From NCBI GenBank assembly GCA_000002445.1, contig CH464492.1:32001-96000 (forward strand): a stretch of 64,000 nucleotides of DNA, given 5' to 3'. Source of the stretch: Trypanosoma brucei. Its lineage: Eukaryota. The position numbers and the translations under genes are program-made. Under the pieces are notes generated by a model. It had not been told where the DNA came from and made no database searches. It saw only the letters and a program-made list of their open reading frames with translations. Numbering within the stretch: the stretch's first letter is position 1; the number at the start of each line of letters is the position of its first letter. This document shows, piece after piece, positions 2,885 to 52,300 of the stretch.

Positions 2885-2999
2885 GTTGAGGTGGCCGGCA
2901 TCGCCAGGGAAGAAAAGAAGTCAGTTGTTACAGATGCCAAGTTTAATTTCTTCGATGAGTTTCTCGTTTCAATTATAAAACATGCCACACCTTATCTAA

Positions 3000-3180
3000 A
3001 TCCAAAATTTCAACATTTATGATCCTTAGTGGCCTCTATTAACTTAACTAATGTAGCTACCCCATTTGACCTGTACACTAATATTATTATCCCCATTGCT
3101 GTCCTCCGAATCATTTACATGAGTTAACAAGAGTAGCCATATTCATATTTGCTGTGAAACTGCGCATGTACCATATCTTT
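3000..3180 (-). other. Conserved ~180-bp element that normally follows the 70-bp repeats at the 5' edge of VSG cassettes. Here it directly abuts the ingi 5' end.
   Basis: Near-identical to 9690-9870 (…CCCCATTTGACCTGTACACTAATATTATTATC…CATTGCTG…TTACATGAG.TAACAAGAGT.GCCATATTCA…). Related copies are at 28390-28440, 59925-59990 and 62630-62700. Confidence 0.6.
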
Positions 3181-3491
3181 TCTTTTCCTCACCATTTCCA
3201 CTTATTTACTGCCTTTTTGCCGTGGCTCTGGTATATCCTATCATTATCATTATCCTTTCTATTATAACCCTAAATAACATCAATACAGAAAAAAAACTAA
3301 AGTAGTACAGGACTACTTTTTCATTTTTTCACTCTGCTAATTGTTCCCATAGTTCACCATGATACATATTACTTGAGTTATAAGATTTAAAAAAATCTCA
3401 ATATTTTCATTAATTTGCGTAGTTTTATCAAAAAGTATTTAAAAATATCAATCTTTAAAAAATTCTGTCAAAGTAGAAAATATTTCGTAAA

Positions 3492-4911
3492 TTATATATG
3501 ATTAAGAAAAATTCTTATAGTGCTATAATACTTAAAATGATACAAACCCATAAAAGCGGAAGATATCAGAGGCAATTTCTTACTGACGAGAAACCTGGAA
3601 TATTTGCAATCTTTTCCTTCCCATTGGCATTTATCATTTTCGCATGCGGTTTTATTGTCTTTGTGTTGTTTGCATTGTTGCCGCCTGGCTTTGTCTACTG
3701 CTGGTTTCGCTCCTTCTGGCGGGCCAGCCGCCGCTGTCTGCTTCCCTGACTGCGGTATGTGCATGTAAGCTATGTTATCTGCTAGTTTGCGCTTGGCTTC
3801 TACTGCCTCCTTGATGCTTTCTAACCTCATTACTGCACTCTCGTGTTCGTGCAGTCTGTCCGCTACCGTTTTTAAATTCTTGAGCCAGCTGATCTGCTCT
3901 GTTGGGTCCCCTGTCGTCGTTGTTATTGTTGTGTACTTGACGCACATGCCCTGGCCTGTTACGCCCGAGCAGCCTGTTCCGAGGTAAGCACCGAGGTAAG
4001 CGTCGCTGGCGGTTTTTCTCACGAGGTGAGCGACGTCACTTATTCTTCTTGTTAGTTCGGCGGCCGTTAGTTTAATTTGTGTATTTGTGTTGCACAGTTG
4101 TTTCACGTCTTTCATGGCGTCATCACTTGGGTTTGAGTTGGCTGTCCACGTGTTTGTTAGTGCGGCGGAGCCGCTGCACGCTTTGCCTGCGTTGGAGCTG
4201 TTGCTGCCGTCGGTTGCACACACACATATCAGCGTTGCAAATGCCGTATTTGCTTTTGCCGCACCCCCGTCGCCTGCGCAATTCGCACTCCTCGAGCCAC
4301 CTGGGTTTGCCGAAAACGCTTTGTACGTTGTGCCCGTGAATCCTGGCTCTTCATCCTGCCCATACACCGCCTTGTTTATCGCCTTGTGAAGTTCATCGTC
4401 GCTTATTAATTTTTTTCCTTTCGCCAGCTGCTTTGCTGACTTGTCGAGGGCCATCGCCTCCGCCGCCAGCGCTTGAATGTAAGGCCGGAGATGGTCTCGT
4501 GCTCTGCTGCTTGGCGAGTTCAGCTTGTACTTTTTTTCAGTGTTTGTTCGTTTGCTGTCTTCCAAGAGATTTTCAGCGGCTTTGGCCCACACTGCCCATT
4601 GCTGCGTCCAGTCTGTCCCTTCCGGTAGTTTTTTTTTTGTTTAGGTCTCTCGGTTTGTCCCGGTTTTCGTCGTCTCTGAATTCATTTATCCATTCTTCTG
4701 TTGAGGCTGACATGTTGAGCTCGAATATTTCCTGCAAGTCGCTTCCTTCTGCAGGTTGGGTCTTCGCTACTGTCGCACGTTTGCCAGCTAACTCAATCAA
4801 TGCGCATAGTGATGCCCTTTCCCGCTGGTTTGCGTCGGCCATGATGTTTCCGCGTGCTTGTCGGCGTAAGTACAGCGTTAAAAATATTGGAAAAAATACT
4901 TTTCCGAGCAT
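3492..4911 (-). pseudogene. VSG: VSG pseudogene (frameshifted). The N-terminal ORF 4573-4911 is joined to ORF 3492-4592.
   Basis: A signal-peptide-like start and an A-type N-domain (…CVCATDGSNSS…GTGCSGVTGQGMCVKY…) followed by a C-domain and a degenerate GPI signal (SRFLVSKKLPLISSAFMGL…). A poly-T run at 4622-4632 lies at the frame change. Confidence 0.8.
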
Positions 4912-6823: not shown

Positions 6824-8335
6824 TCATTTCATACTCAAGAGAGAAGCAGTCATATGAGAAATATTATTATTTTCCAGATAACTAGAGTCCTGGCACTTGC
6901 CTTTAATCCAACCGCAAACAGCTTTTTTGTCTTTTGGGATATCGCCTTTTACTACAGCACATTCTTCAGGTGTTTTGGCGGCACCACACTTGTCTGTTGT
7001 TGTTTCAGTTCCTCCACCTGCTTGAGTTGCTTGTTGTTCTGCTGCTTTTACTGAGTCTAATGAGCATTTTTTATTTGTTTCAGTTGCTTTTTCTTCCCAT
7101 TTTCAGGGTTCTGTGCATTTGTCTTTTGATTGAAGTTTGTTGCAAGATTCCTTTGCTTCTTTTTCTTGCGGTGCTCCTGTGACCGTGTTGGGTTTGTTGG
7201 TTGCTGCTGCACTTATCGCTGCTACTTTGCTGAGCGTTAGGAAATTGTACGTTTGCCAAGCCGATGTGTTGGTTGCTTGTAGCGCCGCCTTTGCTGCTTC
7301 CACCTCTCTTGTCCCAATTGCTGCCTGCTCCAGTTTATCTCTGGCGTCGAGTAACTTCCCAACCCATTCCAGCTTACCTATTGGGTGTTTGTTAAGTTTT
7401 GCCGAGTAGTCTATGCATGTGGTCGCAGACTCCGCGCCAGTGCAGGTTGCTGCCGCGTTGTTTCCAAGTTTGTTGTGGGCGTTAGCTCTGTCCGTTATGC
7501 CTTTGCCAAGGGCGCTCTGGAAGTTTGCCAGAGCTGCCGTGACCGTGTTTACTGTTTTTTCTGTGTCAGCTGAGGCTCTCTTACAGTGGGACTTTATGTC
7601 GGTCCATGCCTGCAGAGCGTTGGCTGCGTCGTCGGCTGCGCTGGTATACCGTGTTGATCCTATGCCGGTCCCGCAGATATTGGCCCCGTCTGTTGCTCCG
7701 GAGCAGAGGCAAACGAGATCGGCTGTAATGGTTTTGCCTGGGCCGTGAGTGCCTCCGCCGGCGCACATCTGGGCATGGGCTGCGAAATCGGTTTGCTTGG
7801 CATCTCTTAGGACGGCGTCGCCGATTGCAGCTTGTGCCAATGCCTTCCTTGCGAGGCTCAGATGCCCCTCGATGTCAGCTGTCGCTTTCCTAAGGTTTTC
7901 CGCTGCTGATTGCGCTTGTTTCCTGATGTCCCCCAGTTGCTTGTGTACTTCTTTCTTCAGAGCTGATTGTTCCGGCCGCTTTATTTTCTGGTTACCTTTT
8001 TCGTCCTTGTGGTTTGTTAGTTCTGTTTTGGCTTGCGTCCAGTCCTCTTCTGAGGCACTGTATTCCCAGTATGTTTTGTTAGCAAACAGTGCGTCGTCTG
8101 CGGTAGCGACAAAAAGATGAGTTACATCCGATGGTATGGTTGGTGCCGCCGAATTACCAGTGTAACGCTCCGCTGTAATAGTTCCTGTTGCCGCATTGTA
8201 CGCTTCGCATAAGGCTGAGAAACCAACGGCGTTTTCGTCGTTCGCTTTTCTTTTCAACGATGCCGCGGATAGTACGAGCGACAAACAAAATATTAGCAGC
8301 GCTTTCTGCCTGGGTTCGGTGCAGCGGTGTGACAT
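6824..8335 (-). pseudogene. VSG: VSG with an intact signal peptide and A-type N-domain. A single in-frame TGA at 7103-7105 separates it from the C-domain, and the GPI signal is degenerate.
   Basis: ORF 7103-8335 (410 aa; MSHRCTEPRQKALLIFCLSLVLSAASL…LVCLCSGATDG…). Translating past the stop by hand in the same frame gives KWEEKATETNKKCSLDSVKAAEQQATQAGGGTETTTDKCGAAKTPEECAVVKGDIPKDKKAVCGWIKGKCQDSSYLENNNISHMTASLLSMK*. Confidence 0.85.
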
Positions 8336-8755
8336 GGTTGAACGTTATGTAGATTACAGTGTGAAATGGCTTACTTGAGTGTATAAAAATAAATGAGTTG
8401 TTATGAGGTGGTTCTCCTCTCGTGTTGCCAGTTGCTACGTGGATCTTGGCAGTGATTGCCTTGCATCTATTCTTTTGTCTTCAACGATGTTGGTTGCTTC
8501 GCCTCGTTGATAAAGGCAATCACAGACCTATAATTTTTCTCCTTCAAAGAAATCCACTTCTATAAATATATCCCCAGAAACTTCCCGACACTCAAAATCC
8601 TATTTCCTTCCATCTATTATATACGTTTGAACTTTACCCTAAAATCTCTCAGGCTAAACTGCATCCTTTCCAATTACTTATACCAAGTAAGATTTTTCAC
8701 AATCAGTCTTACTTTCTCCTCCCATGCAATTGGATGCCCAGGAAAATAAATGAAT

Positions 8756-9311
8756 TCAGCCGCTCAAATCCCACCACTGTTTGTAATACAAAAGAAACTC
8801 TCTCGAAAATCCAATCCAATCATTCCTCTCTCCAAAACAAATCTCTGTCCAGCAGCTTCCGCCTGAATTGCACTCCAAATTAGTAAAGGCTTGTAAATAC
8901 TCTGCTCTGACCACCATTCCAAGCGGACATTTCAATAACTCCCAAAAATGCATATTCAAATATCTTAAATGCCCATACTCTGGCTATTAAACCTCCTCCA
9001 CTAAGATAAGGTTTTCCACTTGTTTGTGACATAAGTTGATGAGGCAACTTCTTATCCTCTTCTTTTCTGTAACCGAAAATAAACAACTAGTAATATCCCT
9101 CCATACTCTTATTGTAAATATCCTCCTCTCTAAACTTATCTTCATTTTCTGCAGTATTTTTTATAAAATATTCCACAGCACTCTCATACTTATTTCCATC
9201 ACTAACAATAACATCAAACCCATTAACATTTATTACAATATCCTCATCACATGCATTCTGTATCTCAAAAACTTCCATAAACCATCTGGGCCTTTTAACA
9301 TGGCTATACAA
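8756..9311 (-). pseudogene. Conserved co-transposed-region ORF family, copy 1, frameshifted. It lies upstream of and in the same orientation as its VSG.
   Basis: ORFs 9087-9311 and 8880-9086 are homologous to 17138-17614 (…YSHVKRPRW…NEDIVI.L.G.DVIVSD…YRKEEDKKLPH…SGKPYLS.GGLIARVWAFK…). Confidence 0.6.
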
Positions 9312-9689
9312 ACTTCAGATCGCAACTGTAATAATTTCAAGATGGCTTAGTTTGGCACTCAATATCAGCCTACACCTTCTTGAGTTGTATGAGTTTGTAC
9401 AACAGCCACAAACGCTCTGTGATTCTTAGGTTGATTCTCTGTCACATTTGTTTTGTTATTTGCTTCATCTTGATGTGATATTGCACTTAAACACACTAAA
9501 TGTTATAGCAACATTAAGAGTAAAGTTCGCAAGACGCCGAATTTTACCTCCTAGGAAACTTTCAAAATTTGAAAAATATGTAATAAAAAAATAAATGGCT
9601 TAGGAAAAGGAGATATAACCACAAGGAGAATTTTAATTTTGAACAAGTTTCCAATTCTGATAAGAAAATATACTTCTCTGTTTCTAAAT

Positions 9690-9870
9690 CTAAAATTTCA
9701 ACATTTATGGTCTGTAGTGGGCTCTTTTTTTTTTACTAACGTCACTACCCCATTTGACCTGTACACTAATATTATTATCTCCATTGCTGTTCTTTAAATA
9801 ATTTACATGAGGTAACAAGAGTGGCCATATTCACATTCTTTCTGAAATGCGCATGTCCCGTACCTTTTTC
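9690..9870 (-). other. Conserved post-70-bp-repeat cassette boundary element
   Basis: Near-identical to 3000-3180. Confidence 0.6.
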
Positions 9871-9974
9871 TTTCTCTCCCTGTCCGCTTACTTACTGTCT
9901 TTTTGCCTTGGCAATGGTATATCTGCTACTATTGCTACAGTCCATTTACTTTTAAACACTGTTTTTATTATAAT

Positions 9975-10140
9975 TTTAGCATGCACACTCACAACAGTCT
10001 CCTATTATTATTATCATTATTATTATCATTATTATCACTATTACTGCTCTTATTATAATATAGTATGTACACTCTCCCAACACACTCCTATCATTATCAT
10101 TACTATTATTATTATTATAAACATAACTAATATTTATAAT
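9975..10140 (-). repeat. 70-bp repeats (about 2 units) in minus orientation, the 5' boundary of the cassette containing the VSG at 6824-8335
   Basis: Reverse complement of the GAGAGTGTTGTGAGTGTGC core (gcacactcacaacagtctcct; acactctcccaacacactcc), flanked by ATT/ATC triplet runs. Confidence 0.85.
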
Positions 10141-10389
10141 ATAAGCAAATCAAAATAGCACCCGCTTTTTATGCCCTATTATCCTATTAATTTACTTCCA
10201 GGCGCCTCTATCGTACAAAGATTTCATATTGTTGAGTTTCAAAATTTAATATTCTGAACAGTTTCCACATTTTCACTTAAAAGTGTTAAAATGCAAAAAA
10301 TTTTAGTGCGTTTCATAAATTTATAAAATTCAGTATAAGTCCATATAATATTAAAATACTACAATCATTTTAAATTCAGAAACTATCAG

Positions 10390-16024: not shown

Positions 16025-16190
16025 GTTATAATAATAATAATAATAAGAGAGTGTTGTGAGTGTGTGTATACAAATATTATAATAATAATATTAATAATAA
16101 TAGTAATAATGATAATGATAATAGGAGAGTGTTGTGAGTGTGCATAAACTGATATTATAATGAGAGCAGTAATAATACTGAATGGATGGG
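16025..16190 (+). repeat. 70-bp repeats (about 2 units) in plus orientation, the 5' boundary of the cassette containing the intact VSG at 18282-19883
   Basis: ataataataataataagagagtgttgtgagtgtgtgtatac…gataataggagagtgttgtgagtgtgcataaactgatattataatgagagcagtaataatactg. Confidence 0.9.
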
Positions 16191-17137
16191 AAAGATGAAG
16201 GCACTGAAAATAATAAAAAAAGTGCAATGAGAATATGTTAGTGAAATCACAGTGAGTAAGTGAGGGAGCAATAAACACACAAAGAATATTATTATTAAAG
16301 GAAGTGCTAAAAACTGAGAAATAAATGTAGATGGAATAAGTGGAATTTCAAATATAACTATGACGATGGGCATAAAATATACAAAGAGATGTTGGAGAGA
16401 CAGAATACGGTATATAGGTATAATTGAATTGGTAGGTTATCCACAGCTATGGAGGTAGCAGAATAAAATGAACGAAAATACAGAAAACAACTGGATTTTG
16501 TAACCAGAAAAAAAGTACAATGACTAAAGAGGTGATTTGCTTCACATTTGACACATAAATATATAAATAATCGTGCAGAGATAGCGGTAGCATCAAGAAC
16601 AGTAGTTTATATATCTAACCTTATAGGAATTTTAAAATGAAATTAGGTGGAAGGAGTATTTGTCACAAGAAAATAATAAAATTACTGGCATATCTCAACA
16701 CATAAGTTAAACTATTTACTGCAATTGCTATAAAAATGCATAAAGAGGAACTTTGAATGCAGGAAAGAGCTGATTTAACGACTGCGCTGTGAATCATCAA
16801 GCTAATGTGTATGGCTAAAACTATAGATTCGTGCTCAAAGATAGGTTGCAGACACCGAGTATACTCTATTCAACAGATTCATCATAACAATATCGTGGGA
16901 TTACTTATATGAACATATTAGTCGTACTGCTCACTTTTTCCCTTACGGTTTCCACGTTATTCTTTTAACAGTCTCCAAATTTAAAGGTATGTTAGGGAAA
17001 TGAAATTTTATATCTTGAGAACTTTACTATTACTGTTGATATAACCTTTAGTGTGTTTAAGTGCAATATCCCTTCAATATACAGTGGATAGAATAACAAA
17101 TATGACACATAATAATACTACGTAACCCAGAATTATT

Positions 17138-17614
17138 GTGATTGTAGTTCAAACTCATGTAACTCAAGGATGGTATAGGCTCATATTGAGTGCCAAACTA
17201 AGCCGTGTTGAAATTGTTACAATTGCAATGGGAGGTTTGTACAGTCATGTTAAAAGGCCTAGATGGGTAATGGAATATTTAGAGAAACAGAATGCAAGTA
17301 ATGAGGATATTGTAATTCATTTGGATGGGTCTGATATTATAGTTAGTGATGAGGTGGGGTATAAGAATGCGGTGAAATATGTTATAAAAAATAGCGTAGC
17401 TAATGAAGATAAGTTTAGTGAAGAGGATAATCACAACGAGCTTGTGCAGAGATGTCTTTGGCTTTTTAATGTTGGTTACAGGAAAGAAGAGGATAAAAAG
17501 TTACCGCATTTACTGAAATCGCCTCCTAGTGGAAAACCCTATCTTAGTGATGGTGGTTTGATAGCCAGAGTATGGGCATTTAAGAAATTTAATATGCATT
17601 TGGAGAGTTACTAA
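17138..17614 (+). CDS. Conserved co-transposed-region ORF family, copy 2 (the longest and apparently intact, 158 aa). Function unknown, with weak glycosyltransferase-like motifs.
   Basis: MIVVQTHVTQGWYRLILSAKLSRVEIVTIAMGGLYSHVKRPRW…NEDIVIHLDGSDIIVSD…YRKEEDKKLPHLLKSPPSGKPYLSDGGLIARVWAFK. It is conserved at 8756-9311 and 32560-32792, with conserved flanks. Confidence 0.5.
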   Translation: MIVVQTHVTQGWYRLILSAKLSRVEIVTIAMGGLYSHVKRPRWVMEYLEKQNASNEDIVIHLDGSDIIVSDEVGYKNAVKYVIKNSVANEDKFSEEDNHNELVQRCLWLFNVGYRKEEDKKLPHLLKSPPSGKPYLSDGGLIARVWAFKKFNMHLESY

Positions 17615-18281
17615 AGGAAAGTGATGAAGGGTGGTCAGAGCAGAGTATTTACAAACCGTTGTTAATATGGAGTGCCATCCAGTAAGAAGCTGTTGGACAG
17701 AGATTTGTTTTGCGGAAAGGGATAATTGCATTGTATTATGAGGAGAGATTCTTTTTGATTCTGACTAATAGTGTGGCGAGTGGAGAGATGCTATTTATTT
17801 ATTTTGATGGACAGCCGATCGCGTGAAAAGAGAAAGCCAAGTTAATTGTGAAAAATCTTACTTTGTATGAAGAGTTAGAAAAAAAGGAATTTGGTTTGGC
17901 AGACTTGGGAAGAATTCAAACTCATACAAAAGATAAAAGGAAATGGGAATTTGGGTATTCGAATATTTGTACTGAAGCGGTTGAAGGCAGTGATTTGTTA
18001 AATGCCACAAAGCTGTGAAACTATACAAACTGTCAAAGATATCAGGACGTCCGAAACGAACGGCGATTAGCCGGGCCGGCGGGCACCAGTGGTTGGCAAA
18101 GGAAAAAACAGGGAACACCATGATTTCAAGAGCTATCCAATCGCATCCATAAAAGTGCTCCAGGCGCAACTGACAAAGCAACAGCAAGCGGCGCTAAACC
18201 TCAGCAGTAAAAAGCACCCTCCAAAGGAACAAAACAGCTCATCGATCGCAGTATTTCAGGTTTATTTTTCTTTTCTGTGGA

Positions 18282-19883
18282 GTGGAAAAGCAGTTAGCAA
18301 GTCGACAGTTGCGTATTCGGATGACCCCAACACCTAAAGCAACGGCGGAACTACAGCGCATCTTGATTCTATACATCGGTGTGCTGTTCTTTGGCCTCAA
18401 CCTAGTAGAGGCCGCCACCGACGCCAACGCCGCACAACACCGCGTGATGTGTCTTCTCACCGCACTAGCCAACACCCCCATCAAGCAAGCAGAAATAACA
18501 GGCAGTGGCGGTTCCGCAAGAGAGACAATCAGTGCGTTGAACGTAACAACGAGCTCAAGCGAGTGGCAAAAAATCTTTGACACCAGTCTCAGCCGGGAAG
18601 CAGGCACAAACTTCCCAGAGACGCTCAAAGACAAGCCGTACGCAGACATCTGGAAAGCGAACTGGGCGTCATGGTGGAAAGCAGCAAAGCATGCCAAAAA
18701 CACTAACATTGGCCAGCCAACACACGACCTATACAAGCCCATCTCATCAGCAATACAAAAAGCAGCCGCAAACAAGAAGATACGGCAACTAGCACTACAA
18801 GCAGAAACCTTAGGTCGAATGTACGACGAAGCGGCGCAACAGGCAACAAGTACCCAAAAGCAACTAGCGCAAACAAAATTAACAGCAGCGCTGTACGGAG
18901 GCGACGGCAGCAAAGCAACACCAGGAACAGACCACACCCGCAAAGCATTTACAACCTGGGACGCCGCATGCACAGGAGACGAAAATGGCAAATCAATCGT
19001 AGGCGACTTTTTCTGCCTTTGTGCCCCAAAAGACGGGACAACGAAAGAATGTGCTGATGGTTACGCCCCGACGCGCTGGGACGCCACCATAGCAGACCCA
19101 GCGGCGGAGTGGAAAAAGCTACAGACGTCTTGCCCAACTGCTAAGCTCAGCAGCGCCAAAGAGCATGATATAAGAATGGCCATAGGAGCGTTCCTACAAG
19201 CCTTGACTACCAGAACTCAAGGCGGCACAACAAAAACTTACCTAGGGAGCAGCGACACAGGCGCATGCGACGGGACAAGCAGCAAGCTATGCGTCGATTA
19301 CACCGGCTACTTCAGCAAGCAAGCAGGTAAAACCTACAAAGATATACCATGGCTCAAATCCCTCGAAGATGCGGTTACGGCCCTAGAAAACATGCACAAG
19401 CAGGAAGAAAAAGCAAATAACCTCGACGCGCAGCTGGCAAACCTGCTGAAACAAGCCAATCTTATCTACGCCGCTGCATTAAACGGCGACTTGATGACCG
19501 AGACAGCGGTCAAAGCCGAAGTTGTTCCTGAAGGGAACCCAAGACAAAATGTAAACTGCGCGCAGCATGACAACAACAAAACTTGCGTTTCTCCATGCAA
19601 GTGGGAATCTAAAGGCGACAAAGGAACATGCAAATTAGATGAAAGCAAAGTTACAACTCAGACAAATACAGAAAGAACAGGAACAGGAGATGGCGCAGCA
19701 AAACATGGAGTAAATTGCTCTAGCCATGCAACCAAGGAGGCATGCGAGGGATTCCAAGGAACTTCAGTCCCAGGCAAAAAAGCTGTTTGTGGCTGGATTG
19801 AAGGCAAATGTCAGGATTCCAGTTTTCTTGTAAACAAAAAATTCGCCCTCATGGTTTCTGCATTTGTGGCCATGCTTTTCTAA
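18282..19883 (+). CDS. VSG: Intact VSG (533 aa) with a signal peptide, N-domain, C-domain and canonical 23-aa GPI signal
   Basis: …MTPTPKATAELQRILILYIGVLFFGLNLVEAATDANAAQH…CGWIEGKCQDSSFLVNKKFALMVSAFVAMLF*. The 16-mer lies 37 bp downstream. Confidence 0.92.
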   Translation: MEKQLASRQLRIRMTPTPKATAELQRILILYIGVLFFGLNLVEAATDANAAQHRVMCLLTALANTPIKQAEITGSGGSARETISALNVTTSSSEWQKIFDTSLSREAGTNFPETLKDKPYADIWKANWASWWKAAKHAKNTNIGQPTHDLYKPISSAIQKAAANKKIRQLALQAETLGRMYDEAAQQATSTQKQLAQTKLTAALYGGDGSKATPGTDHTRKAFTTWDAACTGDENGKSIVGDFFCLCAPKDGTTKECADGYAPTRWDATIADPAAEWKKLQTSCPTAKLSSAKEHDIRMAIGAFLQALTTRTQGGTTKTYLGSSDTGACDGTSSKLCVDYTGYFSKQAGKTYKDIPWLKSLEDAVTALENMHKQEEKANNLDAQLANLLKQANLIYAAALNGDLMTETAVKAEVVPEGNPRQNVNCAQHDNNKTCVSPCKWESKGDKGTCKLDESKVTTQTNTERTGTGDGAAKHGVNCSSHATKEACEGFQGTSVPGKKAVCGWIEGKCQDSSFLVNKKFALMVSAFVAMLF

Positions 19884-20300: not shown

Positions 20301-21180
20301 GCATTTTGAGCTGCGCGCGGTATCAATTTTTTTTAAAGCTGGAGCGCGGCCTATAACACCGCACGCAATTCTTTTACGCCGCCTCGCTGCAGTATCGGTG
20401 CGCCAAACAATTTTTGTTTTCAAAAAGAAAATAAAGGAAGGGGAAAATATTTGTGAGATGGCAATTATAAAGAGCAGAAATTAAGGAGCGATTAGACAAT
20501 CTGCTGCTGGCACCCAACGGCCAAAGACGATAAACTGCCAGAGGTACGTTTTTAACCCCTAAGCCGTCGAGGATAAAATGTGCACATTGAGTGAGAGAAA
20601 TCAAGAAGATAGAACAAAAAGAAGCGCGAACAGATGGAGACAAAAAAGAGAACTATTATTTTTTTTGAAATTTTCTTCGTGACTTCGTGAGAGTTTCTCC
20701 CCACTGGCGAGTCCATCAGCCATAACCGTAGAGCCATGAGATGCTATCGGTCTGGCGACTGTGGCAGAGTCTCCCTTTTTTATTCAGCCTAACACACCCT
20801 CTATAATTTTTTGTTGTAGCTCCGCAGTTGGACGGAATACAGCAGATGGAGCAGAAAGCCCCCCACCCCTGACTCTCCAAAAGATGTCAATTAACAGTCC
20901 TTTTGTTTTGATTTTTGTTATTCGTTTATTATTCTCTCCTCTTTCTCTTTCTGTTTTTGTTGCTTGTTGACAGCATACCCTCTCTGTCTCTGAGGGTGTC
21001 TGGACTATTCCTGCGTCCGGTGCTTTTCCTGCTGGCTCCACACTCGGCAATAAGGGGGGAAGCTGCAGAATGGAGAGTGGGTTGTATGACTGTTACATTA
21101 GGTGAGGACTTCACCTGCGGCCGGCTCCGTTCAACCGCAATAAGAAACTGCGCCAGCCTTTTAGAGAAACATATATCCTG

Positions 21181-24100
21181 CACACACACACTCACCTTCT
21201 ACCGCAAACCTAACACGTAACTCCTTCAAACCGGGACAGCTCATCAAGTGCAGCGACGTTTCTTCGCAGTCGCCGCGTTGGCTGGTAACAGCGCACTCTA
21301 CCTTCATACCTTGCATCTTCTTTTGATGTAGGGTGAGGCCAGTTTTGCTAGCACACTGCCTTCCGCATGTCGGGCATACCAACATGGATGTGTTTGTATG
21401 CGGGGAATCAGTGGCAAGCAATTTTGTGCTTTTGCTGCATTTAAGCTCGACTCCCTCACCTTTGTGGAAAGCCTTACAGTGTCGGATGAGGGAGTCCCTG
21501 CAACTGAGCATTTTTTGGCACACACCACACTGCACCTCGCCCTTCCCCGGGACGTCAACGTTTCCCTCACGGGCACGCTTACGAGGGAATTGCACCACCA
21601 CCACGGTACCGTCCTCCGTCACTATGCTCTTATGTTTGAATTTCTTGTGTAGTGACAGGGAAGAACGTGTACCGAAGCTCGCCTCGCACAGGTCACATTG
21701 AAACGGCAGCTTCCGTGTATCCTGAGAGGCTGGCGCTGCTGGGGCTCTACCATCTCCTTGCACTGAGTCCTCGTTCTCTCTCCCCCTTTTCACGCGGCAA
21801 CTACCGCTGCCTATGCCATGTATTGTTCTAAGGTGGTGTAATAGTCGGCCTAGCACTGCGAATATGGAGGCACAGATGGTACAATGAAGCACCTGCAGTC
21901 TCATCGGGACTCGTGTGCTCGATGGTAGAGGAACGATCGCCACCGCTGGAGGGGGCTCCGGGGGGATGTCCACTGCAGGTGTTGCATCGCCGTATTTGAT
22001 CCTCCGGAGGGCATCAGCTCGCACAAAGCCATGTTTGTTTACCATATGCGTTACAGCACTCGAGCGGCATTGGTATGTGGCATCACATTCCGTATATTAG
22101 GTCGGTTCGGAGGTTCTCTGAAGAGTGCGTGTCGCAACAGTTGGGGATGTTTGTATTGTGGGTCCTATTGCTTCATGTTTCGGGTTACACCATCGGCACT
22201 GTGGAGGCACACTCGGGTTGATATTTCGCAACATCCATCCATAGTGTCTTGAAGAACCAACCCGAAAGCGTGCCAGTGCCGTTTCTTCTTCCCTCGTCAG
22301 TTCTTCATTATGTTTTGTTGGAAAGTGGTTGCCCGTGATACCAAACCTATGAGTGTTCTCATGGACTTCTTCCGACCTAAGCACTCGCTTCGCATAAGCA
22401 ATGATGTCGGGGACCCATGTGTCTCGCAACTGTGGTAAATCAGCGGCCTTTTTGGCCATTTCATCGCAAACCTCATTCCGTTTCACGCCACAATGGCCAA
22501 ACAAAAATTGCAGTCGGATACGTATCTTCCTTCTCTGAACTTGAAGCAGAAGCCTCCATAGTCGTCTCAGAATTGGGTCCGTTACGGCTAGGGGGCCTGT
22601 CTGCAATGCTGTTAACATTGACAGCGAGTCAGAGAAGATGGACAACCTGCTCGGTGTGCTTCTGTATGCCGGAACCCATTTCAGCAGCCGTTGCAGTCCT
22701 ATCTCTAATGCTACGCATTCCGCTCTGTAACTTCATGAGAGTTCCCCTGCTCCGGTCTTGGGTGCGCAAATCAGCGTGTTGTTTCTATAGAGCAGGGCAG
22801 CTGCTCCGAACTTCTCACCGAGGGACAAAGATCCATCAGTCCACAATTCGTAGTGCTCTCGTCGCGGTGGCTCCTTCCCCCTCCGTGCAAAATGCCGTTC
22901 AATCCACTTTTCGGAAGCCTCCCTTTTGACATTGTTAGAGTCATCAGCGCACACAGGCTTTATCTGCGTGTGAAATAGCGGTCGGCAGCTGTGGCGGAGC
23001 GTCGATGTCTCTAGTGGGTTTTCGCGTGGCTCAATGCGGAGGTGAAGGTAGGACCGCATGATGCGGGAATGTGTGGCTCTGACTGGGTGTTTGCTGTGAT
23101 ATGCTTCCTCAGCACTGCGCCGCAAACATCCGCCTCGTGACTCACACATCAGCATGAATTTCATGCTGCGCACAAGAGTGGTCGTCTTGAGTGGCAGGAG
23201 GTTTGCTTCCAGCAGACAGTCCTCTTTGCTCGTCCCATGTGGTATGCCAGCTATGATGCGACTGACCTTGTGTTGCGCTGCTGCAAGGAGGTCGCGACTT
23301 CGTTCCGAAGCGTCCCAGTACCATACCTCAATGCCATACATGGTGTGTGCCTGTACGAGTGCTAGATAAAAAGCTCTCAGTACTTGTCGTCTTGGCCCCC
23401 ATGTAGAAGCTGAGATGGCTGCTATCTGCAGTAGTAGGAAGTCCATCTTGCGTCTCGTTTCTGCCGCATGTGTTGCCATCCCTTGCAGACACTGGAATGT
23501 TACTCCTAGAAGCTTCGGTGTCCTGTCAGCTCCTATTCTTTCGCCGTCCATTGTAATGTAAGGGGGTGGCGCTCTATACACCCGAAGAGTGTGCACTTCG
23601 TTTTCGCTACGTTGACAGACATGAAGTACTCTTTTGACCACTGTAACACCACGTTTAGGCCGCATTACAGCGTGTGGTTGATGACATCCCTCTCTGTGTG
23701 CCTCGCAAGTAGCGTCAGGTCATCTGCAAAGAATCCGTGCTGCAGTAACGGCACTTCTGCAAGGCGCTGGCTCAACGAGTTCATGACAATAATGAACATG
23801 ATTGGGCCAAGGACAGTTCCTTGTGGCACTCCTCGCTCAAATGTTCTGCTGCTGGAAAGCTTCTCCTTGAATCTCACTCTGCCAGTTCGGTTACTCAGAA
23901 ATGATACACACCACTTCACAATGTGGGGTGATACCTTCATTCTGTGCATTTCCCTCGCAATTTTGTCGTGGTCTACTGTATCGAATGCCTTCTCTTAGTC
24001 GACGAATACAGCACCTGTACGATATTGGTGCGTGGGACGGCAGAGGGCAGCGCGGACGTGCAGGAGGTGTTCGAGCGTTGAGCATCCGGGGCGAAAGCCT

Positions 24101-25917
24101 GATTGCTGCGGCGTCAGCTGGGACTCAACAGTGTCTCTAAGTCTCGCGGCAATTATTCGCTCCATGACTTTGCAGAGACAGCTCGTGAGCGTCACTGGCC
24201 TGTAAGAATCGAGGTCCTCCGCCTTTTTTCCGGCCTTCAGGATGGGGATGATAACACCAGTCTTCCATGCAGACGGCACGACTCCCGTTCGTAGGCTCTC
24301 ATTGAATAGCCTCAGAACAACATTCAGCGCTGTTCTACCGAGATGTTGCAGTGCCTTGTTGTATAAGCAATCAGGTCCGGCTGCGGATCCACTCGGTAGC
24401 AGTTTGATCGATCTCCGTAGTTCAGCCATCGTGATGGGACTGAACTCACTCGCTATCGTCTTTATGTGTGCCGGTGGGTGTGAGTCGGGGTGCCTTCTTG
24501 CGCAAGACGAGTACAGTTTAATGAACCTCTCAGCTTGACGGTAGTCCGTGATGGCCGCGTTATCAACAAGCACAGCCGGTGTGGTTAGTGGTCGTGGCGC
24601 ATATACCTTCTTGACAATGTGCCAACTGCAGCGGTCTGACACCGCAAGTCTGGAGCATAGCGTGCTCCATCTCTTCTTTGTGGTACGGTCCAGAATCTGC
24701 TTACGCGTGGCTACCAACTTTTCTCTTATGTGGAAAGGTCCTCATCCAGCGATCTCTTCATCGAGTTTCGCGAGCTCAGGTGTCCAATGTGGTGGCGTTA
24801 CTCTGCAGCCACGGGGGACGGAGACATTCGTCGCAGTGCGGATGGCGGAGCTCAATTTCTGTTCCAGAGTGTTGACATTCTTCTCTCTACCAATTTTCCT
24901 GCAGAGCTCGTGAACCTTGAGACGGAAATTCCTCCAGTTAGCTTTTAGCCATGCGTACATGGGCTTTTGAAGCCGCGGGCAACTCAGTGCATCTGTGTCG
25001 TCTCCAACGATATCGTCGAAAAATATGTTATGGTGATCGCTATCGGGAGAATACAGCGATGTCCACGTGTACACTGTGCAATTCCTTGACAGTGTCACAT
25101 CAGGGGTGGACTCCTCGTGGTGGCGCGTGTACCTGGTGCACTCACCAGTGTTACATACCAGAAACTGGTTGTCAATGCACCACTGTGTGAGGGTTTCACC
25201 CTTGGTATTTGGTGGGCTCGCGCGATCCCATGCCAACGCGTGTGCGTTAGCGTCTGCACCGATGAGCTTGGCACCGTCAGTTGTCAGAAGCGTATCTAGG
25301 TCAGTTGCCGTGAAGGTGTGTTTTGGTGGGATGTATGCCGACGTGACAGTCAGCGCCGTTCCACGTGCAAGGTGAATTGTTGCATGCACTTGTTCAATGC
25401 GACCAACAACGGTCATACCAGTCTCGACTAGCAGGTTCTCCATCACTAGTATTGATACACCACCTCCTTTGCAGTTACGAGCTATTCTGTGATGTCGGTA
25501 GCCAGCAACGCTAAAGCAAACCACCTCTCCAGGCGTCATCCTTGTCTCGCTCAACAGACAAAAGACAATCCGCTCATCAACAAGGGTTTTGTGGAGTGCT
25601 AATCTCTTTTCTTGAGATAGCCCAGCGCAGTTCCACTGCATCCCGCGCAACGACAGGCCGGGATTCTCTTCCACATCACCGGACAGCAGCATGTTAGTGC
25701 GGATGATATTGCTGATGGCACGCTGGCACATGCCCAGGGACCGACAAATGAAAAACGGTGTCCCAGCAAGACGCTGCTGATCCCTGTGCTGTATAATGCC
25801 TTGGCCGGAGCACAGCATTGTTCCCCATGAAAGGAACGTTGGTGGCTCTTGGCTTCCCCCGATGATACGGGGTACTGGACCCTGGCACCACGTTGATGTT
25901 GCCGGCATCGCCAGGGG
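21181..25917 (-). mobile_element. ingi retrotransposon copy 2, about 4.74 kb. It runs from the 5' signature to a (CA)n-ended 3' boundary, and its ORF is broken into 5 or more pieces.
   Basis: 5' signature at 25849-25917 (minus strand). ORFs along the minus strand are APE (24742-25956, with the 2A-like DVEENPGL), RT (23995-24717; 23665-23949; 22733-23665), RNase H (22097-22645; FGHCGVKRNEVCDEMAKKA) and C2H2 zinc fingers (21161-22045). Colinear with copy 3. Confidence 0.9.
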
Positions 25918-26455
25918 ACGAATTTGAAACCACCCTGAGCGTGACACATTACTCAAATGGAAAATTTAAAGTAGACGGTAACGCTATGACAAAAACAGCC
26001 AAACTCTATCTCACAAGTCAGAAAGGTCAAAACAAGAAAAGACACAACCATGCACGACTTTCTCTGCCCTTTCAGTACAACACAACGGCAGATAGCGACC
26101 AAGTTATTAAATATGGCAAAAATATCTGGCACAACCGCGAAACAAAAGCGCGCATGGAACTGATTAACAGCATAAAATTCTTTCTAAAAGTAATCGCTGG
26201 ACGCAAAACTGGCAATAAACAGCCTCAATACGCCCTCTAACGGAATTCTTACAGCACCTAAAAAGGACAACTACAGGCGAAAAGGCGGCCCCAAATAGCT
26301 GAAAAGTGCAACTCGTTCAGGCCTTAAACCACAAAGAAAGCCATTCTAAATCCATAGGACCAGCGGCTTTTCAGATGAAGCCGAGACCACAAGACAACAC
26401 TGCCTTCACCGCCTGTAAGTTGTAATGCCTCAAGACAAGCCTGATATTTTCTTAA

Positions 26456-31932: not shown

Positions 31933-31963
<31 letters not shown>

Positions 31964-32055
31964 AATAAAAGGAGAGTGTTGTAAGGGTATGTGTATACGA
32001 ATATTATAATATTAATAAAAATAATGATAATAATAATGATGATGATAATGAAACC
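31921..32055 (+). repeat. 70-bp repeats in plus orientation
   Basis: …aataataataatgataatgataatgataataataaaaggagagtgttgtaagggtatgtgtatacgaatattataatattaat…. Confidence 0.85.
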
Positions 32056-32559
32056 GGCCGCTTGGGTTTGTAATCACAGAAAACAAGGAAAACGTGTAAT
32101 AAATTTTAAACAGTGCAGTGCAACTAGCGTATTCGAATCCCATAAAAATGAATAGATGGAAAATATGAAGAATACAAAGAGTAGCGGAATTTAAACAGTG
32201 AGAGAGTGGAGGTACGCCTGAAGCTAACTACATAAAAATGTAGATACGTACTCAAAGATGAGATAACAACACTGAGCATACGTCTTTTAGCAACTAGATT
32301 AAAACAATGTTAAACATTGCCTATGTAAAAACCCCAGAGACTCAACAAATTTTTTCTTTTTGTCTAACATGATTTTTTTTGTAGCCCTCTCAAATTCATA
32401 GGTAGAGTAAAACATAAATATTTCTGTATTGACAACTCTACTATTACATTTCATGAGTTTGCACTCGGTATCTCTTCAATATAACGAAGTAGATAACACA
32501 ACAAATATAACAGAGAATGTTCTTAAGAAACGAAGAGTGTGTGCGGTTGAAGTTTAAAC

Positions 32560-32792
32560 TCATGCAACACAAGGATGGTATTGACTCATATTGATTGCCA
32601 AACTAAGTAATGTTGAAATTATTACAATTGGGCTGGGATGTTTGTATAGTCATGTTAAAAGGCCTTTGTGGGGTTATGGAATTTTTAAAAAGTCAGAATG
32701 CAAGTAATGAGGATATTGTAATTCATTTGGATGGGTCTGATGTTATTGTTTGTGATTTAAAAAATATGAGAGTGCTGTGGAAAAAGCGATGA
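32560..32792 (+). pseudogene. Conserved co-transposed-region ORF family, copy 3 (a truncated fragment)
   Basis: …ACTCATGCAACACAAGGATGGTATTGACTCATATTGATTGCCAAACTAAG… flank, plus the ORF fragment …FLKSQNASNEDIVIHLDGSDVIVCD…. Confidence 0.55.
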
Positions 32793-34320: not shown

Positions 34321-35920
34321 ATGAAGTAGGGCACTGCGATCGCGCTGGTGGCGGTTCTGACACATCTGCAACACGGTAAAGCAACAGTCGACAAACAAAT
34401 AGTACACACGTACTTGAAGGAGCTGTGCGAAATCGGCGCAGATGGCGAAAAACTCGGTAGCAGAGCACAACATACACTAAAGGCGCCTGCACAAGCGGCT
34501 AGCCAGGAACTACGAGGGCTACTACAGACAATGGTTTTTCTAGAAAGCGGCAACACCACACTCTCTGGGCCAGCGACGCAAACCACGCTCGACTACACGG
34601 CCCGATCCTTGTCAAAACATCTAGCATACTACGATTCGCAAGAGGCCAGCCAAGAACTGACTTCCGTACTAGACGGCGGTCGGCTGCAAGGCGCAATACG
34701 GGAGTTTGTAACGACTGCTGCGGCCGTATCAGGCAGCAACAAAAGCTGCCTGCAAGACAGCGACACAGCCAGTAACGGTGTGCAAGGCGTAGCAGCGCTC
34801 GAGAAGCAAGAACCGTTGTGCAAAATAAACCCAGCGGCAACCAACACCGGCGACCAGACTTCGTAGCCCTCAGACCCAACGGCTTTGCAAGCTACCTCGC
34901 AAATGCCGTGGACCACGCAACGTTGGCAACAGGCAGCGGCAACCAATGTGACATGAATTCCGACGCTGCAAACCACAAGTGGCTCAACGACGGCACTGGC
35001 GTGGACATTAGCAGGAACAACCCAACAGTGGCGGCGGGCTTGATCCAGATCACAGCAACTAACGGGCTTGCAGGAGAAGGCGGTAAGAAGTCAGTAAATG
35101 GCGGAAAAGCGCCTCTAGTTGCCGCGGTGCTAAGGCATGTGCAGCGGACCACAAGCCCGTTGCAAACCGCAACGCAGACCACGGTAGCCGACGCAGCACA
35201 GCGAGACGACTACAAAAACGCAGCAGGGAGATATTTGTTCGGCCTTGAAAGCTCAGACTGTAAAAGAGACAGCGAACTTCCGACCGCGACCAAGACAAGC
35301 TACAATGCAAGCGATCGACCGGACAAACTGCTTCTTCAAGACATAAACGACATGCCCATCACAGGCATACTAAAGAAAAGTCCCAACTTGAAGAAACTTG
35401 GTAATGACACTGACATAAACCAACTGTTGGAGCCGTGCTTCTACTCGGAGTTGAAGAAACAGAAACTAGCGAATACCGAGAAAAAACTTCAAGAAGCAGC
35501 AGCCAAGACGAGTACAAAATCAGCAGAAGAAAAGGAGAAGGAGTGCAATACCAAAGGCAACGACAAGCAAGAAGAGTGTAAAAAACTAGCTAAAGATGGG
35601 TGCGTTTTTAACAAAGACGGCAAAGATGGTGAAAAGTGCACGTTAACGAAAGAAGCCACACAAAAAGCGGCAGAGCAAGAAAACCAAGAAACAGGAGGGA
35701 ATGATGGGAAACTGTTTGCTCTACACACCAGGATCAGACATCTTGTGAAAAAGAGAATGAAGGACTGCCAGCTTCTGCCCCTCGTAAATGTGGTTGGATA
35801 ACTTTTACAGACAACGAGGGTAAAATTCCCAGACCTGACTGCCTTCCTTCCAGTTTTCTCGTCAATAAGAAATTGGCTCTCATAGCAGCTGCTTTTATGA
35901 GTTTTGTGTTATTTTAGCAT
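34321..35920 (+). pseudogene. VSG: VSG pseudogene. Codon 3 after the ATG is TAG (34327-34329), there is a later frameshift at about 34820-34866, and the GPI signal is intact.
   Basis: ATG AAG TAG GGC ACT GCG ATC GCG CTG GTG GCG GTT CTG ACA CAT CTG reads M K * G T A I A L V A V L T H L (signal-peptide-like). ORFs 34348-34866 and 34818-35801. The end reads …DCLPSSFLVNKKLALIAAAFMSFVLF*. Confidence 0.75.
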
Positions 35921-38565: not shown

Positions 38566-38696
38566 CTAAATTCACCGAAAAAATTGAACTGTATTTGTAA
38601 AAAATTCTGAGTCTGTAAAAATTTTTGCTTTTCTGATACCTAAAATTTTTTTCCTTTTCCCGTTGAATTTTTTTATTTTGTGCAGGTAGGTGGGTG

Positions 38697-38795
38697 ATTA
38701 GTTAGGTTAGTTAGGGAGGGTTTCCCTACTTAGGCTTAGGATTAGGATTAGGCTTAGGGTTAGGATTAGGATTAGGGTTATTCGGTTAGGGTTAA
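38697..38795 (+). repeat. Degenerate telomere-like repeats in G-strand orientation (TTAGGG, TTAGGC, TTAGGA variants)
   Basis: ttaggttagttagggagggtttccctacttaggcttaggattaggattaggcttagggttaggattaggattagggtta…ggttagggtta. Confidence 0.85.
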
Positions 38796-38848
38796 TTTTC
38801 CTCTCTTCCTGCTAATTAATTTTCTCATTCCAGTTTTTCTAGTCTTTT

Positions 38849-52270: not shown

Positions 52271-52300
52271 GTAAGAGGTTTACTTGTGGAGCACATGGTC

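What the first reader, a model, noticed from the sequence alone, without database searches (positions are those of the whole stretch)
17138..17614. Conserved ORF family in the co-transposed region upstream of VSGs, with PLOD/GT-like motifs
Three copies exist at 8756-9311 (-), 17138-17614 (+) and 32560-32792 (+). They share protein-level similarity and about 250 bp of conserved 5' flank. Each lies 0.5-1.5 kb upstream of a VSG in the same orientation. The longest copy contains IVIHLDGSDIIVSD (a DxD-like stretch) and KPYLSDGGLIARVWAF. The second resembles the YLNSGGFIG block of lysyl-hydroxylase/GT-A type glycosyltransferase domains. This could be a remnant of the subtelomeric glycosyltransferase pseudogene family, or a real small protein that travels with VSG cassettes.
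Basis: partly seen in the sequence, partly recalled or inferred. Interest (0 to 1): 0.5.

Follow-up and report, generated by a model that had tools for sequence, protein, structure and literature searches.

The report
Decayed ESAG3 glycosyltransferase pseudogenes beside VSGs
The "conserved ORF" is the longest open stretch left in a broken copy of ESAG3, the trypanosome enzyme that adds glucose to the surface coat protein, and dead copies like this next to silent coat genes are already known, so the finding is real but ordinary.

Summary
The three stretches are homologous and carry the quoted motifs. Each lies between a 70-bp repeat and a VSG in the same orientation. They are not a small-ORF family. 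They are three pseudogenes of ESAG3 (expression-site-associated gene 3, Fam53) in a Trypanosoma brucei-type subtelomeric VSG array:
- copy 2, 17000-18018 (+), full length
- copy 1, 8528-9547 (-), full length
- copy 3, 32402-~32790 (+), N-terminal third only

A repaired translation of copy 2 matches expression-site ESAG3 at E 1.6e-121 with 71% identity. The 158-aa ORF runs from a premature stop (17123) to a stop created by a private 1-bp deletion (~17591).

The family profile hits only the LH3/PLOD3 glycosyltransferase domain in the PDB (E 1.6e-6). An AlphaFold model gives the same top fold match. A 2026 preprint shows ESAG3 is the Mn-dependent VSG O-glucosyltransferase.

The window copies are dead. 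They carry 4-6 in-frame stops and 1-3 frameshifts. They share an 87-bp deletion that removes a core strand, and the catalytic His297 is replaced by Tyr.

One oddity remains. Pairwise dN/dS is about 0.4, below the neutral expectation of about 0.8. Novelty: already known. Interest is low.

The parts
17000..18018 (+). ESAG3 pseudogene, copy 2. It is full length relative to the 368-aa ESAG3, minus 29 codons, and includes the finding.
   Evidence: tblastn with ESAG3 P0001 covers aa 44-368 at E 2e-113. The frameshift-aware alignment covers aa 1-368 at 70% aa identity, ending at TGA 18016-18018. The repaired translation hits ESAG3 at E 1.6e-121.
17138..17614 (+). The reported 158-aa ORF. It is the longest open stretch of copy 2 and corresponds to ESAG3 aa 47-227 minus the deletion. 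The first ATG is at 17228.
   Evidence: ORF list. It is bounded upstream by the in-frame stop at 17123 and downstream by the stop at 17612-17614, which a private 1-bp deletion near 17591 brings into frame.
17042..17044 (+). In-frame TAA at ESAG3 codon 15, inside the signal/anchor peptide. The same codon is TAA in copy 1 (9505).
17123..17125 (+). In-frame stop at ESAG3 codon 43, private to copy 2.
17324..17335 (+). DGSD, the DXXD metal-binding motif (ESAG3 D110-D113). It is intact in copy 2.
   Evidence: Sequence, alignment, residue assignment from the preprint.
17426..17431 (+). Junction of the in-frame 87-bp (29-codon) deletion of ESAG3 aa 145-173 (IVKEKHISPIMFMTTSECYAPQLDLLMNS). It is shared with copy 1 and with the T. 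b. equiperdum copy.
   Evidence: The deleted part holds beta-strand 154-159 of the AF2 model and the family-invariant C162 and Q166.
17589..17593 (+). Private 1-bp deletion (frameshift) that ends the 158-aa ORF.
   Evidence: Copy 2 reads AAATTT-AATATGCA where copy 1 and L001 read TTTGAATATGCA.
17683..17685 (+). In-frame stop at ESAG3 codon 259 in the downstream frame.
17800..17802 (+). TAT (Tyr) in place of the catalytic, metal-binding His297. It is shared by copy 1 (TAT) and L001 (TAC).
   Evidence: The role of H297 is from the preprint.
17824..17826 (+). In-frame stop at ESAG3 codon 305.
8528..9547 (-). ESAG3 pseudogene, copy 1. It is full length. ATG has become GTG. It has 6 in-frame stops (9505, 9317, 9089, 8766, 8676, 8602) and 3 frameshifts (9379, 8921, 8640). 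It carries the same 87-bp deletion, D110N and H297Y.
   Evidence: (E 1e-95).
32402..32790 (+). ESAG3 pseudogene fragment, copy 3, covering ESAG3 aa ~1-130 only. It has stops at 32408, 32555 and 32582 and frameshifts at 32672 and 32757. DGSD is intact. Homology ends at ~32790.
   Evidence: (E 2e-29).
16028..16177 (+). 70-bp-type repeat (period 78, 1.9 copies, TAA-rich plus a GTGTTGTGAGTGTG core). It marks the upstream boundary of the copy-2 VSG cassette.
   Evidence: TRF. Related copies lie upstream of the other cassettes. Repeat properties of 75-77 bp and AT-rich are from PMC4858185.
18321..19883 (+). Apparently intact B-type VSG (520 aa, N- and C-terminal domains), 300 bp downstream of copy 2.
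   Evidence: Pfam VSG_B at 2.6e-61 and Trypan_glycop_C at 6e-28.
7103..8335 (-). B-type VSG ORF downstream of copy 1. No C-terminal domain is in frame.
   Evidence: Pfam VSG_B at 1.2e-41.
34348..35801 (+). Frameshifted A-type VSG pseudogene, ~1.5 kb downstream of copy 3.
   Evidence: Pfam Trypan_glycop at 3.4e-18 for 34348-34866. ORF layout.
9958..10144 (-). 70-bp-type repeat upstream of copy 1.
31933..32051 (+). 70-bp-type repeat upstream of copy 3.

Best explanation
The three elements are non-functional relics (pseudogenes) of ESAG3. ESAG3 is the T. brucei expression-site-associated GT-A glycosyltransferase, recently shown to O-glucosylate class B VSGs. Each relic sits inside a silent VSG cassette, between the upstream 70-bp repeat and the VSG.

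Shown here:
- Full-length collinear homology to ESAG3.
- Many disabling lesions, most of them private to one copy.
- An in-frame 87-bp deletion and His297Tyr shared by copy 1, copy 2 and a copy in T. b. equiperdum. These copies therefore descend from one already crippled ancestor that multiplied within the subtelomeric archive.
- The 158-aa ORF is only the stretch between a premature stop and a frameshift-induced stop.

Inferred:
- The pseudogenes make no useful protein.
- They are carried passively. VSG duplication and gene conversion use the 70-bp repeat as the 5' boundary, so anything between that repeat and the VSG (the co-transposed region) is copied along with it.
- They can then decay freely, because intact ESAG3 copies in the expression sites supply the enzyme.
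For: - The exhaustive HMMER search with the repaired copy-2 translation gives a best hit of 368 aa at 71% identity, E 1.6e-121. Members of that cluster are named ESAG3 of T. brucei bloodstream expression sites.
- The next hits, at 28-35% identity, are GRESAG3 proteins.
- tblastn with ESAG3 finds only these three loci in the window.
- The lesion map shows 4-6 stops and 1-3 frameshifts per full-length copy.
- The DNA alignment shows the same deletion junction and the same His-to-Tyr codon in copy 1, copy 2 and T. b. equiperdum locus L001.
- The deleted segment contains a high-confidence core beta-strand and family-invariant residues.
- An NJ tree places the copies on long branches inside ESAG3 sensu stricto, outside the tight expression-site clade and away from GRESAG3.
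- The context is a VSG array with ingi-type retroelements.
- Literature:
  - ESAG3 pseudogenes occur in subtelomeric arrays (PMC3871602).
  - An 'ESAG3 psi 3' of 70-bp repeat' is reported in Lister 427 BES7 and BES15 (PMC2567434).
  - ESAG3 is an LH3-like GT-A O-glucosyltransferase (preprint).
Against: - Pairwise dN/dS among copy 1, copy 2 and L001 is 0.35-0.43. Base-specific neutral simulations give about 0.8 (0 of 400 were as low). The two off-frames give 0.85-1.4.
- Copy 2 and L001 carry fewer in-frame stops (2 and 1) than the ~5-6 expected for fully neutral branches. Part of the divergence therefore happened while the reading frame mattered, even though the shared deletion and H297Y look inactivating.
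- No ESAG3 DNA was available, so gene conversion from intact copies could not be tested.
- Transcription and translation were not tested.
Confidence: 0.93

Rival explanations
1. A formerly, or still partly, selected 'short ESAG3'. In this reading the deletion-bearing H297Y variant was a catalytically dead paralogue (a pseudoenzyme, for example a subunit or regulator of the ESAG3 oligomer). It was carried with class B VSG cassettes and began to decay only recently.
For: - In-frame dN/dS of 0.35-0.40 is well below the neutral controls.
- The deletion is exactly in frame, at 87 bp.
- Stops are fewer than neutral expectation in two of the three copies.
- The shared stop at codon 15 could be a parallel mutation. 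My rough estimate is a ~25% chance of at least one shared stop.
- Three of the four copies lie upstream of B-type VSGs.
- BES7 (VSG3) and BES15 (VSG11) carry an ESAG3 pseudogene in the same position, and both VSGs are O-glucosylated class B VSGs.
Against: - Every copy seen has stops and frameshifts.
- No intact protein with the deletion is in the 5.8-billion-protein or 1.8-billion-representative libraries. The only hit is a 95-aa fragment annotated as hypothetical.
- The deletion removes a central beta-strand and invariant residues, so folding is doubtful.
- The sample is only 3-4 copies.
Confidence: 0.08
2. A real small protein of 128-158 aa is encoded by the open stretch and conserved upstream of VSGs.
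For: - The ORF is long for 33% GC DNA.
- The homologous Met-initiated ORF in T. b. equiperdum was called as a hypothetical protein by an annotation pipeline.
- dN/dS is below 1 in this segment, at 0.38.
Against: - The ORF boundaries are not conserved. Copy 1 is broken by stops at 9317 and 9089 and by a frameshift at 9379. Copy 3 is broken by stops at 32555 and 32582 and by a frameshift at 32672.
- The ORF ends at a private 1-bp deletion.
- The start is GTG, and the signal peptide is cut off by two stops.
- Homology continues for another 400 bp in a different frame. This is what a decayed longer gene looks like.
Confidence: 0.02
3. The element is kept for a DNA-level role. Its ESAG3 homology might guide pairing or recombination between silent cassettes and the ESAG3 copies in expression sites, or it might supply RNA-processing signals for the VSG.
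For: - Hertz-Fowler et al. note that recombination breakpoints in expression sites coincide with ESAG3 loci and suggest a role in aligning sites (PMC2567434).
- The element recurs in the same position in arrays and in BES7 and BES15.
Against: - The copies are only 73-78% identical to each other at the DNA level. By general knowledge of mismatch-repair limits, that is poor substrate for homologous recombination.
- Only 3 of about 10 VSG cassettes in the window have it.
- Substitutions show codon periodicity rather than uniform DNA conservation.
- The flanks between repeat, pseudogene and VSG are not conserved.
Confidence: 0.05

Closest known systems
ESAG3 of T. brucei bloodstream expression sites (e.g. 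CAQ57304, Q26748; 368 aa)
   Same: The match is collinear along the full length, at 66-70% aa identity. The N-terminal hydrophobic peptide, DGSD, the GGG loop and WSEQ are all recognisable.
   Different: The window copies are not intact. They have stops, frameshifts, a 29-codon deletion and H297Y, and copy 1 also has D110N. They lie in silent arrays downstream of a 70-bp repeat, not upstream of it among the ESAGs.
'ESAG3 pseudogene 3' of the 70-bp repeat' in Lister 427 BES7 (VSG 427-3) and BES15 (VSG 427-11), Hertz-Fowler et al. 2008 (PMC2567434)
   Same: The arrangement is the same: 70-bp repeat, then ESAG3 pseudogene, then VSG.
   Different: Those copies are in telomeric expression sites.
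T. b. equiperdum DPX39_070011900 locus (CM010678.1, locus L001 9983-10784)
   Same: It shares the 87-bp deletion junction and H297Y. It is 78% nt identical to copy 2 and lies upstream of a B-type VSG fragment.
   Different: It is 5'-truncated at ESAG3 aa 74 and abuts an A-type VSG pseudogene. It is not orthologous to any window copy, since all pairs are about 73-74% identical.
GRESAG3 / ESAG3-like proteins of trypanosomatids (e.g. XP_827729, XP_823173)
   Same: They belong to the same protein family and share the invariant D110, D113, G215 and Q245.
   Different: They are only 22-35% identical. The window copies group with ESAG3 sensu stricto.
Human LH3/PLOD3 N-terminal glycosyltransferase domain (PDB 6FXR, 6WFV)
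   Same: It has the same GT-A fold and equivalent catalytic motifs. It is the only PDB family hit by the ESAG3 family profile (E 1.6e-6) and is the top Foldseek hit.
   Different: Identity is about 16%. Pfam GT_PLOD scores below its cut-off for ESAG3 (16.5 against 27 bits) and gives nothing for the window copies. The substrates also differ: collagen hydroxylysine-galactose for LH3 and VSG serine for ESAG3.

Membership tests
ESAG3 sensu stricto (Fam53) | Significant full-length sequence similarity to expression-site ESAG3, closer than to GRESAG3 | tested here: met
   E 1.6e-121 at 71% identity, against 28-35% for GRESAG3. tblastn gives E 2e-113, 1e-95 and 2e-29. NJ tree.
ESAG3 sensu stricto (Fam53) | Intact reading frame of ~368 aa with an N-terminal signal/anchor peptide | tested here: not met
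   There are 4-6 in-frame stops and 1-3 frameshifts per full-length copy. A stop at codon 15 lies inside the hydrophobic N-terminus. Copy 3 is truncated at aa ~130. The copies are therefore filed as pseudogenes of the family.
ESAG3 sensu stricto (Fam53) | Location in T. brucei-type telomeric or subtelomeric VSG loci | tested here: met
   VSG_B, Trypan_glycop and Trypan_glycop_C domains, 70-bp repeats and ingi-type elements are present in the window.
Active GT-A (LH3-like) glycosyltransferase | DXXD metal-binding motif (ESAG3 D110/D113) | tested here: inconclusive
   Copy 2 and copy 3 keep DGSD. Copy 1 has NGFD, i.e. D110N, the substitution used as a catalytic mutant (D110N) in the preprint.
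Active GT-A (LH3-like) glycosyltransferase | C-terminal metal-binding His (ESAG3 H297, LH3 H253) | tested here: not met
   Tyr is present in copy 1, copy 2 and L001. Copy 3 lacks the region.
Active GT-A (LH3-like) glycosyltransferase | Complete GT-A core, including strand 154-159 and the invariant C162/Q166 | tested here: not met
   A 29-codon deletion of aa 145-173 is present in copy 1, copy 2 and L001.
Active GT-A (LH3-like) glycosyltransferase | Glycine loop (G215-G216) and the W242/E244/Q245 donor-site residues | tested here: met
   Copy 2 has YLSDGG and GWSEQ. Copy 1 has YLSGGG and WWSEQ.
Active GT-A (LH3-like) glycosyltransferase | Parent family has the LH3/PLOD3-type GT-A fold | tested here: met
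   The family profile against the PDB hits only LH3, at E 1.6e-6. The AF2 model has pLDDT 87, and Foldseek's top hits are LH3 at E 4e-9. This agrees with the preprint.
Pfam GT_PLOD (PF25342) | Score at or above the gathering threshold (27 bits) | tested here: not met
   The window ORFs and the repaired copy give no hit even at E <= 10. ESAG3 itself scores 16.5 bits. Only a distant relative, P0026, reaches 28.4 bits.
   No Pfam family was reported at E <= 10 for the repaired 293-aa translation. All significant protein hits are ESAG3 or GRESAG3.
VSG cassette / co-transposed region | Position between an upstream 70-bp repeat and a downstream VSG in the same orientation | tested here: met
   Repeats lie at 16028-16177, 9958-10144 and 31933-32051. 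VSGs lie at 18321-19883, 7103-8335 (-) and 34348-35801.

The most novel reading that the evidence does not exclude
The deletion-bearing, His297Tyr 'short ESAG3' was not dead on arrival. It was a selected, non-catalytic paralogue that was co-transposed specifically with class B VSGs, the substrates of ESAG3. In that case some VSG cassettes once carried their own modifier or regulator of O-glucosylation. The array copies, and the ESAG3 pseudogenes next to VSG3 and VSG11 in Lister 427, would be its recent relics. The residual dN/dS of about 0.4 and the B-type VSG neighbours are compatible with this reading but are far from proving it.
Probability: 0.08. Interest if true: 0.5.

Novelty: already known. 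Interest (0 to 1): 0.15.

Why it matters
It matters little for discovery. ESAG3 pseudogenes scattered through T. brucei subtelomeric VSG arrays, and even an ESAG3 pseudogene between the 70-bp repeat and the VSG, are documented. The GT-A/LH3-like nature of ESAG3 is now established experimentally.

The value lies elsewhere:
- Annotation. The 128-158-aa ORF should not be called a protein. A homologous fragment is already deposited as a 'hypothetical protein' in T. b. equiperdum.
- A defined old sublineage of ESAG3 pseudogenes. It is marked by an 87-bp deletion and H297Y, and could serve as a marker for the ancestry of VSG cassettes.
- A cheap question for a full-genome census, raised by the non-neutral dN/dS and the B-type VSG neighbours.

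Tried and rejected
- Pfam on the raw ORFs and on the repaired 293-aa translation gave no family even at E <= 10. The GT link needed a family profile and a fold search.
- phmmer of the raw 158-aa ORF against the PDB gave only spurious MonB hits, E 0.5.
- The word-index protein search with the 158-aa ORF found nothing. This was a false negative. The exhaustive search and a later search with the 339-aa repair both found ESAG3.
- Exact-protein look-ups found nothing on record. The queries were the VSGs at 18321, 37103 and 7106, the 128-aa ORF and ESAG3 P0001. The source strain is therefore not identified, and no ESAG3 DNA was obtained for branch-specific codon models.
- Homology outside the ESAG3 body is absent between cassettes. 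I compared the repeat-to-pseudogene and pseudogene-to-VSG flanks. The one exception is 9683-9923, which matches 2995-3237.
- Short-patch gene conversion as the route by which the deletion spread was rejected. Identity around the junction is not elevated.
- Base-composition bias as the cause of the low dN/dS was rejected. GC is similar at all three codon positions and base-specific simulations still give about 0.8.

Full report
**Observation.** The ORF at 17138-17614 (+) exists and carries the two quoted motifs. It is 158 aa only under the bacterial start rule of the ORF tool, because its start is GTG. The first ATG is at 17228, leaving 128 aa.

Self-BLASTN shows that the similarity is real and longer than reported:
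- 17013-17956 matches 9534-8590 (-) at 76% over 951 bp.
- 17067-17350 matches 32469-32756 at 81% over 288 bp.

A TAA-rich 70-bp-type repeat lies upstream of each copy (16028-16177, 9958-10144, 31933-32051). A VSG lies downstream in the same orientation:
- an intact-looking B-type VSG at 18321-19883
- a B-type VSG ORF at 7103-8335 (-)
- a frameshifted A-type VSG at 34348-35801

The window as a whole is a T. brucei-type subtelomeric VSG array. It holds about ten VSG (pseudo)genes and three ingi-like retroelement bodies.

**What it is.** Reading the three frames by eye showed that similarity between copies continues upstream of 17138 to an ATG at 17000 (MKFYILRTLLLLLI, interrupted by two stops). 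It also continues downstream of 17614 in another frame, to about 18015.

I joined the two frames and masked the stops to make a 293-aa translation. It gave no Pfam hit. Against the PDB its only hits were the glycosyltransferase domain of human LH3/PLOD3, at a non-significant E of 0.1.

The exhaustive HMMER search of 1.84 billion representatives settled the identity. The best hit is a 368-aa protein at 71% identity, E 1.6e-121. The members of its 90% cluster are the ESAG3 proteins of T. brucei bloodstream expression sites. The following hits, at 28-35% identity, are the chromosome-internal ESAG3-like (GRESAG3) proteins of T. brucei and other trypanosomatids. tblastn with ESAG3 finds exactly three loci in the window:
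- 17000-18015 (+)
- 9547-8531 (-)
- 32411-32756 (+)

**Anatomy.** I aligned each copy to ESAG3 with a frameshift-aware method.

Copy 2 (17000-18018):
- 70% aa identity
- in-frame stops at 17042, 17123, 17683 and 17824
- one frameshift near 17591
- a 29-codon deletion of ESAG3 aa 145-173
- Tyr in place of His297

Copy 1 (8528-9547, minus strand):
- 66% aa identity
- ATG changed to GTG
- six stops and three frameshifts
- the same deletion and H297Y, plus D110N

Copy 3 (32402-~32790):
- covers only aa ~1-130
- three stops and two frameshifts
- unrelated sequence follows it

The 158-aa ORF is therefore simply the stretch between the stop at 17123 and the stop brought into frame by a 1-bp deletion private to copy 2.

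**A shared lineage.** One database fragment is a 95-aa 'hypothetical protein' of T. b. equiperdum. It led to locus L001. That locus holds a 5'-truncated ESAG3 pseudogene with the same deletion junction and the same His-to-Tyr change. It is 78% identical to copy 2 and again lies upstream of a B-type VSG fragment.

The deletion and H297Y are therefore ancestral to a multi-copy pseudogene lineage present in more than one genome. The three longer copies are about equally distant from each other, at 73-74% nt identity. Each is closer to expression-site ESAG3 (65-71% aa) than to the others (56-59% aa). In an NJ tree they sit on long branches at the base of the tight expression-site clade, well apart from GRESAG3. 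The sequences between repeat, pseudogene and VSG are not conserved between cassettes.

**The PLOD/GT-A idea.**
- A profile of 17 ESAG3/GRESAG3 proteins hits only LH3/PLOD3 in the PDB, at E 1.6e-6.
- An AlphaFold2 model of ESAG3 (pLDDT 87) has the LH3 GT domain as its top Foldseek matches, at E 4e-9.
- Pfam GT_PLOD is sub-threshold for ESAG3 itself, at 16.5 against 27 bits.
- A 2026 preprint (10.64898/2026.01.27.701950) shows experimentally that ESAG3 is a Mn-dependent, UDP-glucose-specific, retaining GT-A O-glucosyltransferase acting on class B VSGs. Its closest structural relative is LH3/PLOD3.

The preprint names the key residues as D110/D113, G215-G216, W242, E244/Q245 and H297. In the window copies the catalytic His is lost. 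The deletion also removes a central beta-strand (residues 154-159 of the model) together with the family-invariant C162 and Q166.

**Selection test.**
- Nei-Gojobori dN/dS between copy 1 and copy 2 is 0.43, with a bootstrap range of 0.31-0.59.
- Over the span shared with L001, the three pairs give 0.35-0.40.
- The two off-frames of the same alignments give 0.85-1.4.
- Base-specific neutral simulations give a median of about 0.8, and none of 400 was as low as observed.
- Private substitutions fall 84/72/118 on codon positions 1/2/3.
- In-frame stops number 5, 2 and 1, against about 5-6 expected for wholly neutral branches.

The decay is therefore not purely neutral. By my rough estimate, about half of the divergence accrued while the frame mattered. 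Identity is not raised around the deletion junction, so recent patch-wise spread of the deletion is unlikely. The shared TAA at codon 15 could be a parallel hit.

I could not separate two explanations without ESAG3 DNA. One is a period of constraint on the deletion variant. The other is undetected conversion from intact ESAG3 genes. This remains the one unexplained point.

**Mechanism.** The best-supported account is passive. This is inference from established knowledge of VSG gene conversion. Duplication and conversion of VSG cassettes use the 70-bp repeat as the upstream boundary. An ESAG3 copy that once landed between the repeat and a VSG is therefore copied with the cassette. It then decays, because intact ESAG3 genes in the expression sites supply the enzyme.

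A DNA-level role as recombination homology has been suggested for ESAG3 loci in expression sites (PMC2567434). It is unlikely for copies that are only 73-78% identical to each other and present in only 3 of about 10 cassettes.

**Comparison with what is known.**
- Hertz-Fowler et al. list an 'ESAG3 psi 3' of 70-bp repeat' in BES7 (VSG 427-3) and BES15 (VSG 427-11) of Lister 427. This is the same arrangement as in the window.

Points beyond the literature I read are the shared 87-bp deletion/H297Y lineage, the residual constraint signal and the possible link to B-type VSGs. They rest on four copies and are leads only.

**Verdict.** The elements are ESAG3 pseudogenes (confidence 0.93), the novelty is 'already known', and interest is 0.15.

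Noticed in passing
window 38690-38800 and 39968-40183: Two convergent VSGs, 37103-38527 (+) and 40372-41928 (-), are each followed by the conserved VSG 3'UTR motif (TGATATATTTTAACAC at ~38549; its reverse complement at ~40311). Each then has a short degenerate telomere-repeat tract: TTAGGG-type on the + side and CCCTAA-type on the other side. The CCCTAA tract has a 29-bp higher-order unit repeated 4.4 times. The tracts face each other across ~1.2 kb of A-rich spacer. This looks like a relic of a head-to-head telomere fusion, or possibly a scaffold join.
   Followed up: partly
window 401-2065 (-), 21161-25956 (-), 52280-56786 (-): These are ingi-type non-LTR retrotransposon bodies with RVT_1, Exo_endo_phos_2 and C2H2 zinc-finger ORFs, all broken into several ORFs. 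Window 20658-22551 and 52314-53682 are 95% identical to T. b. equiperdum L001 18399-20288.
   Followed up: partly
window 9683-9923 (-) and 2995-3237 (-): A 243-bp stretch between the 70-bp repeat and ESAG3 pseudogene copy 1 is 83% identical to a stretch downstream of the VSG at 3492-4592 (-). It is the only flank similarity found outside the ESAG3 body.
   Followed up: no
L001 (T. b. equiperdum CM010678.1 227913-248200), 10001-10288: The public annotation calls a 95-aa 'hypothetical protein' (DPX39_070011900). It is in fact an open fragment of an ESAG3 pseudogene that runs into the wrong frame after the deletion junction.
   Followed up: yes
window 60168-61460 (-), 47067-47708 (+), 34818-35801 (+): These long ORFs in VSG-like positions have no Pfam VSG hit at E <= 0.01. 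They are probably divergent or C-terminal VSG pseudogene parts.
   Followed up: no
protein search tool: The word-index protein search missed ESAG3 with the 158-aa query although long identical words are shared (e.g. EDIVIHLDGSDIIVSD). It found ESAG3 with the 339-aa repaired query. Negative results from that index should not be read as absence.
   Followed up: yes
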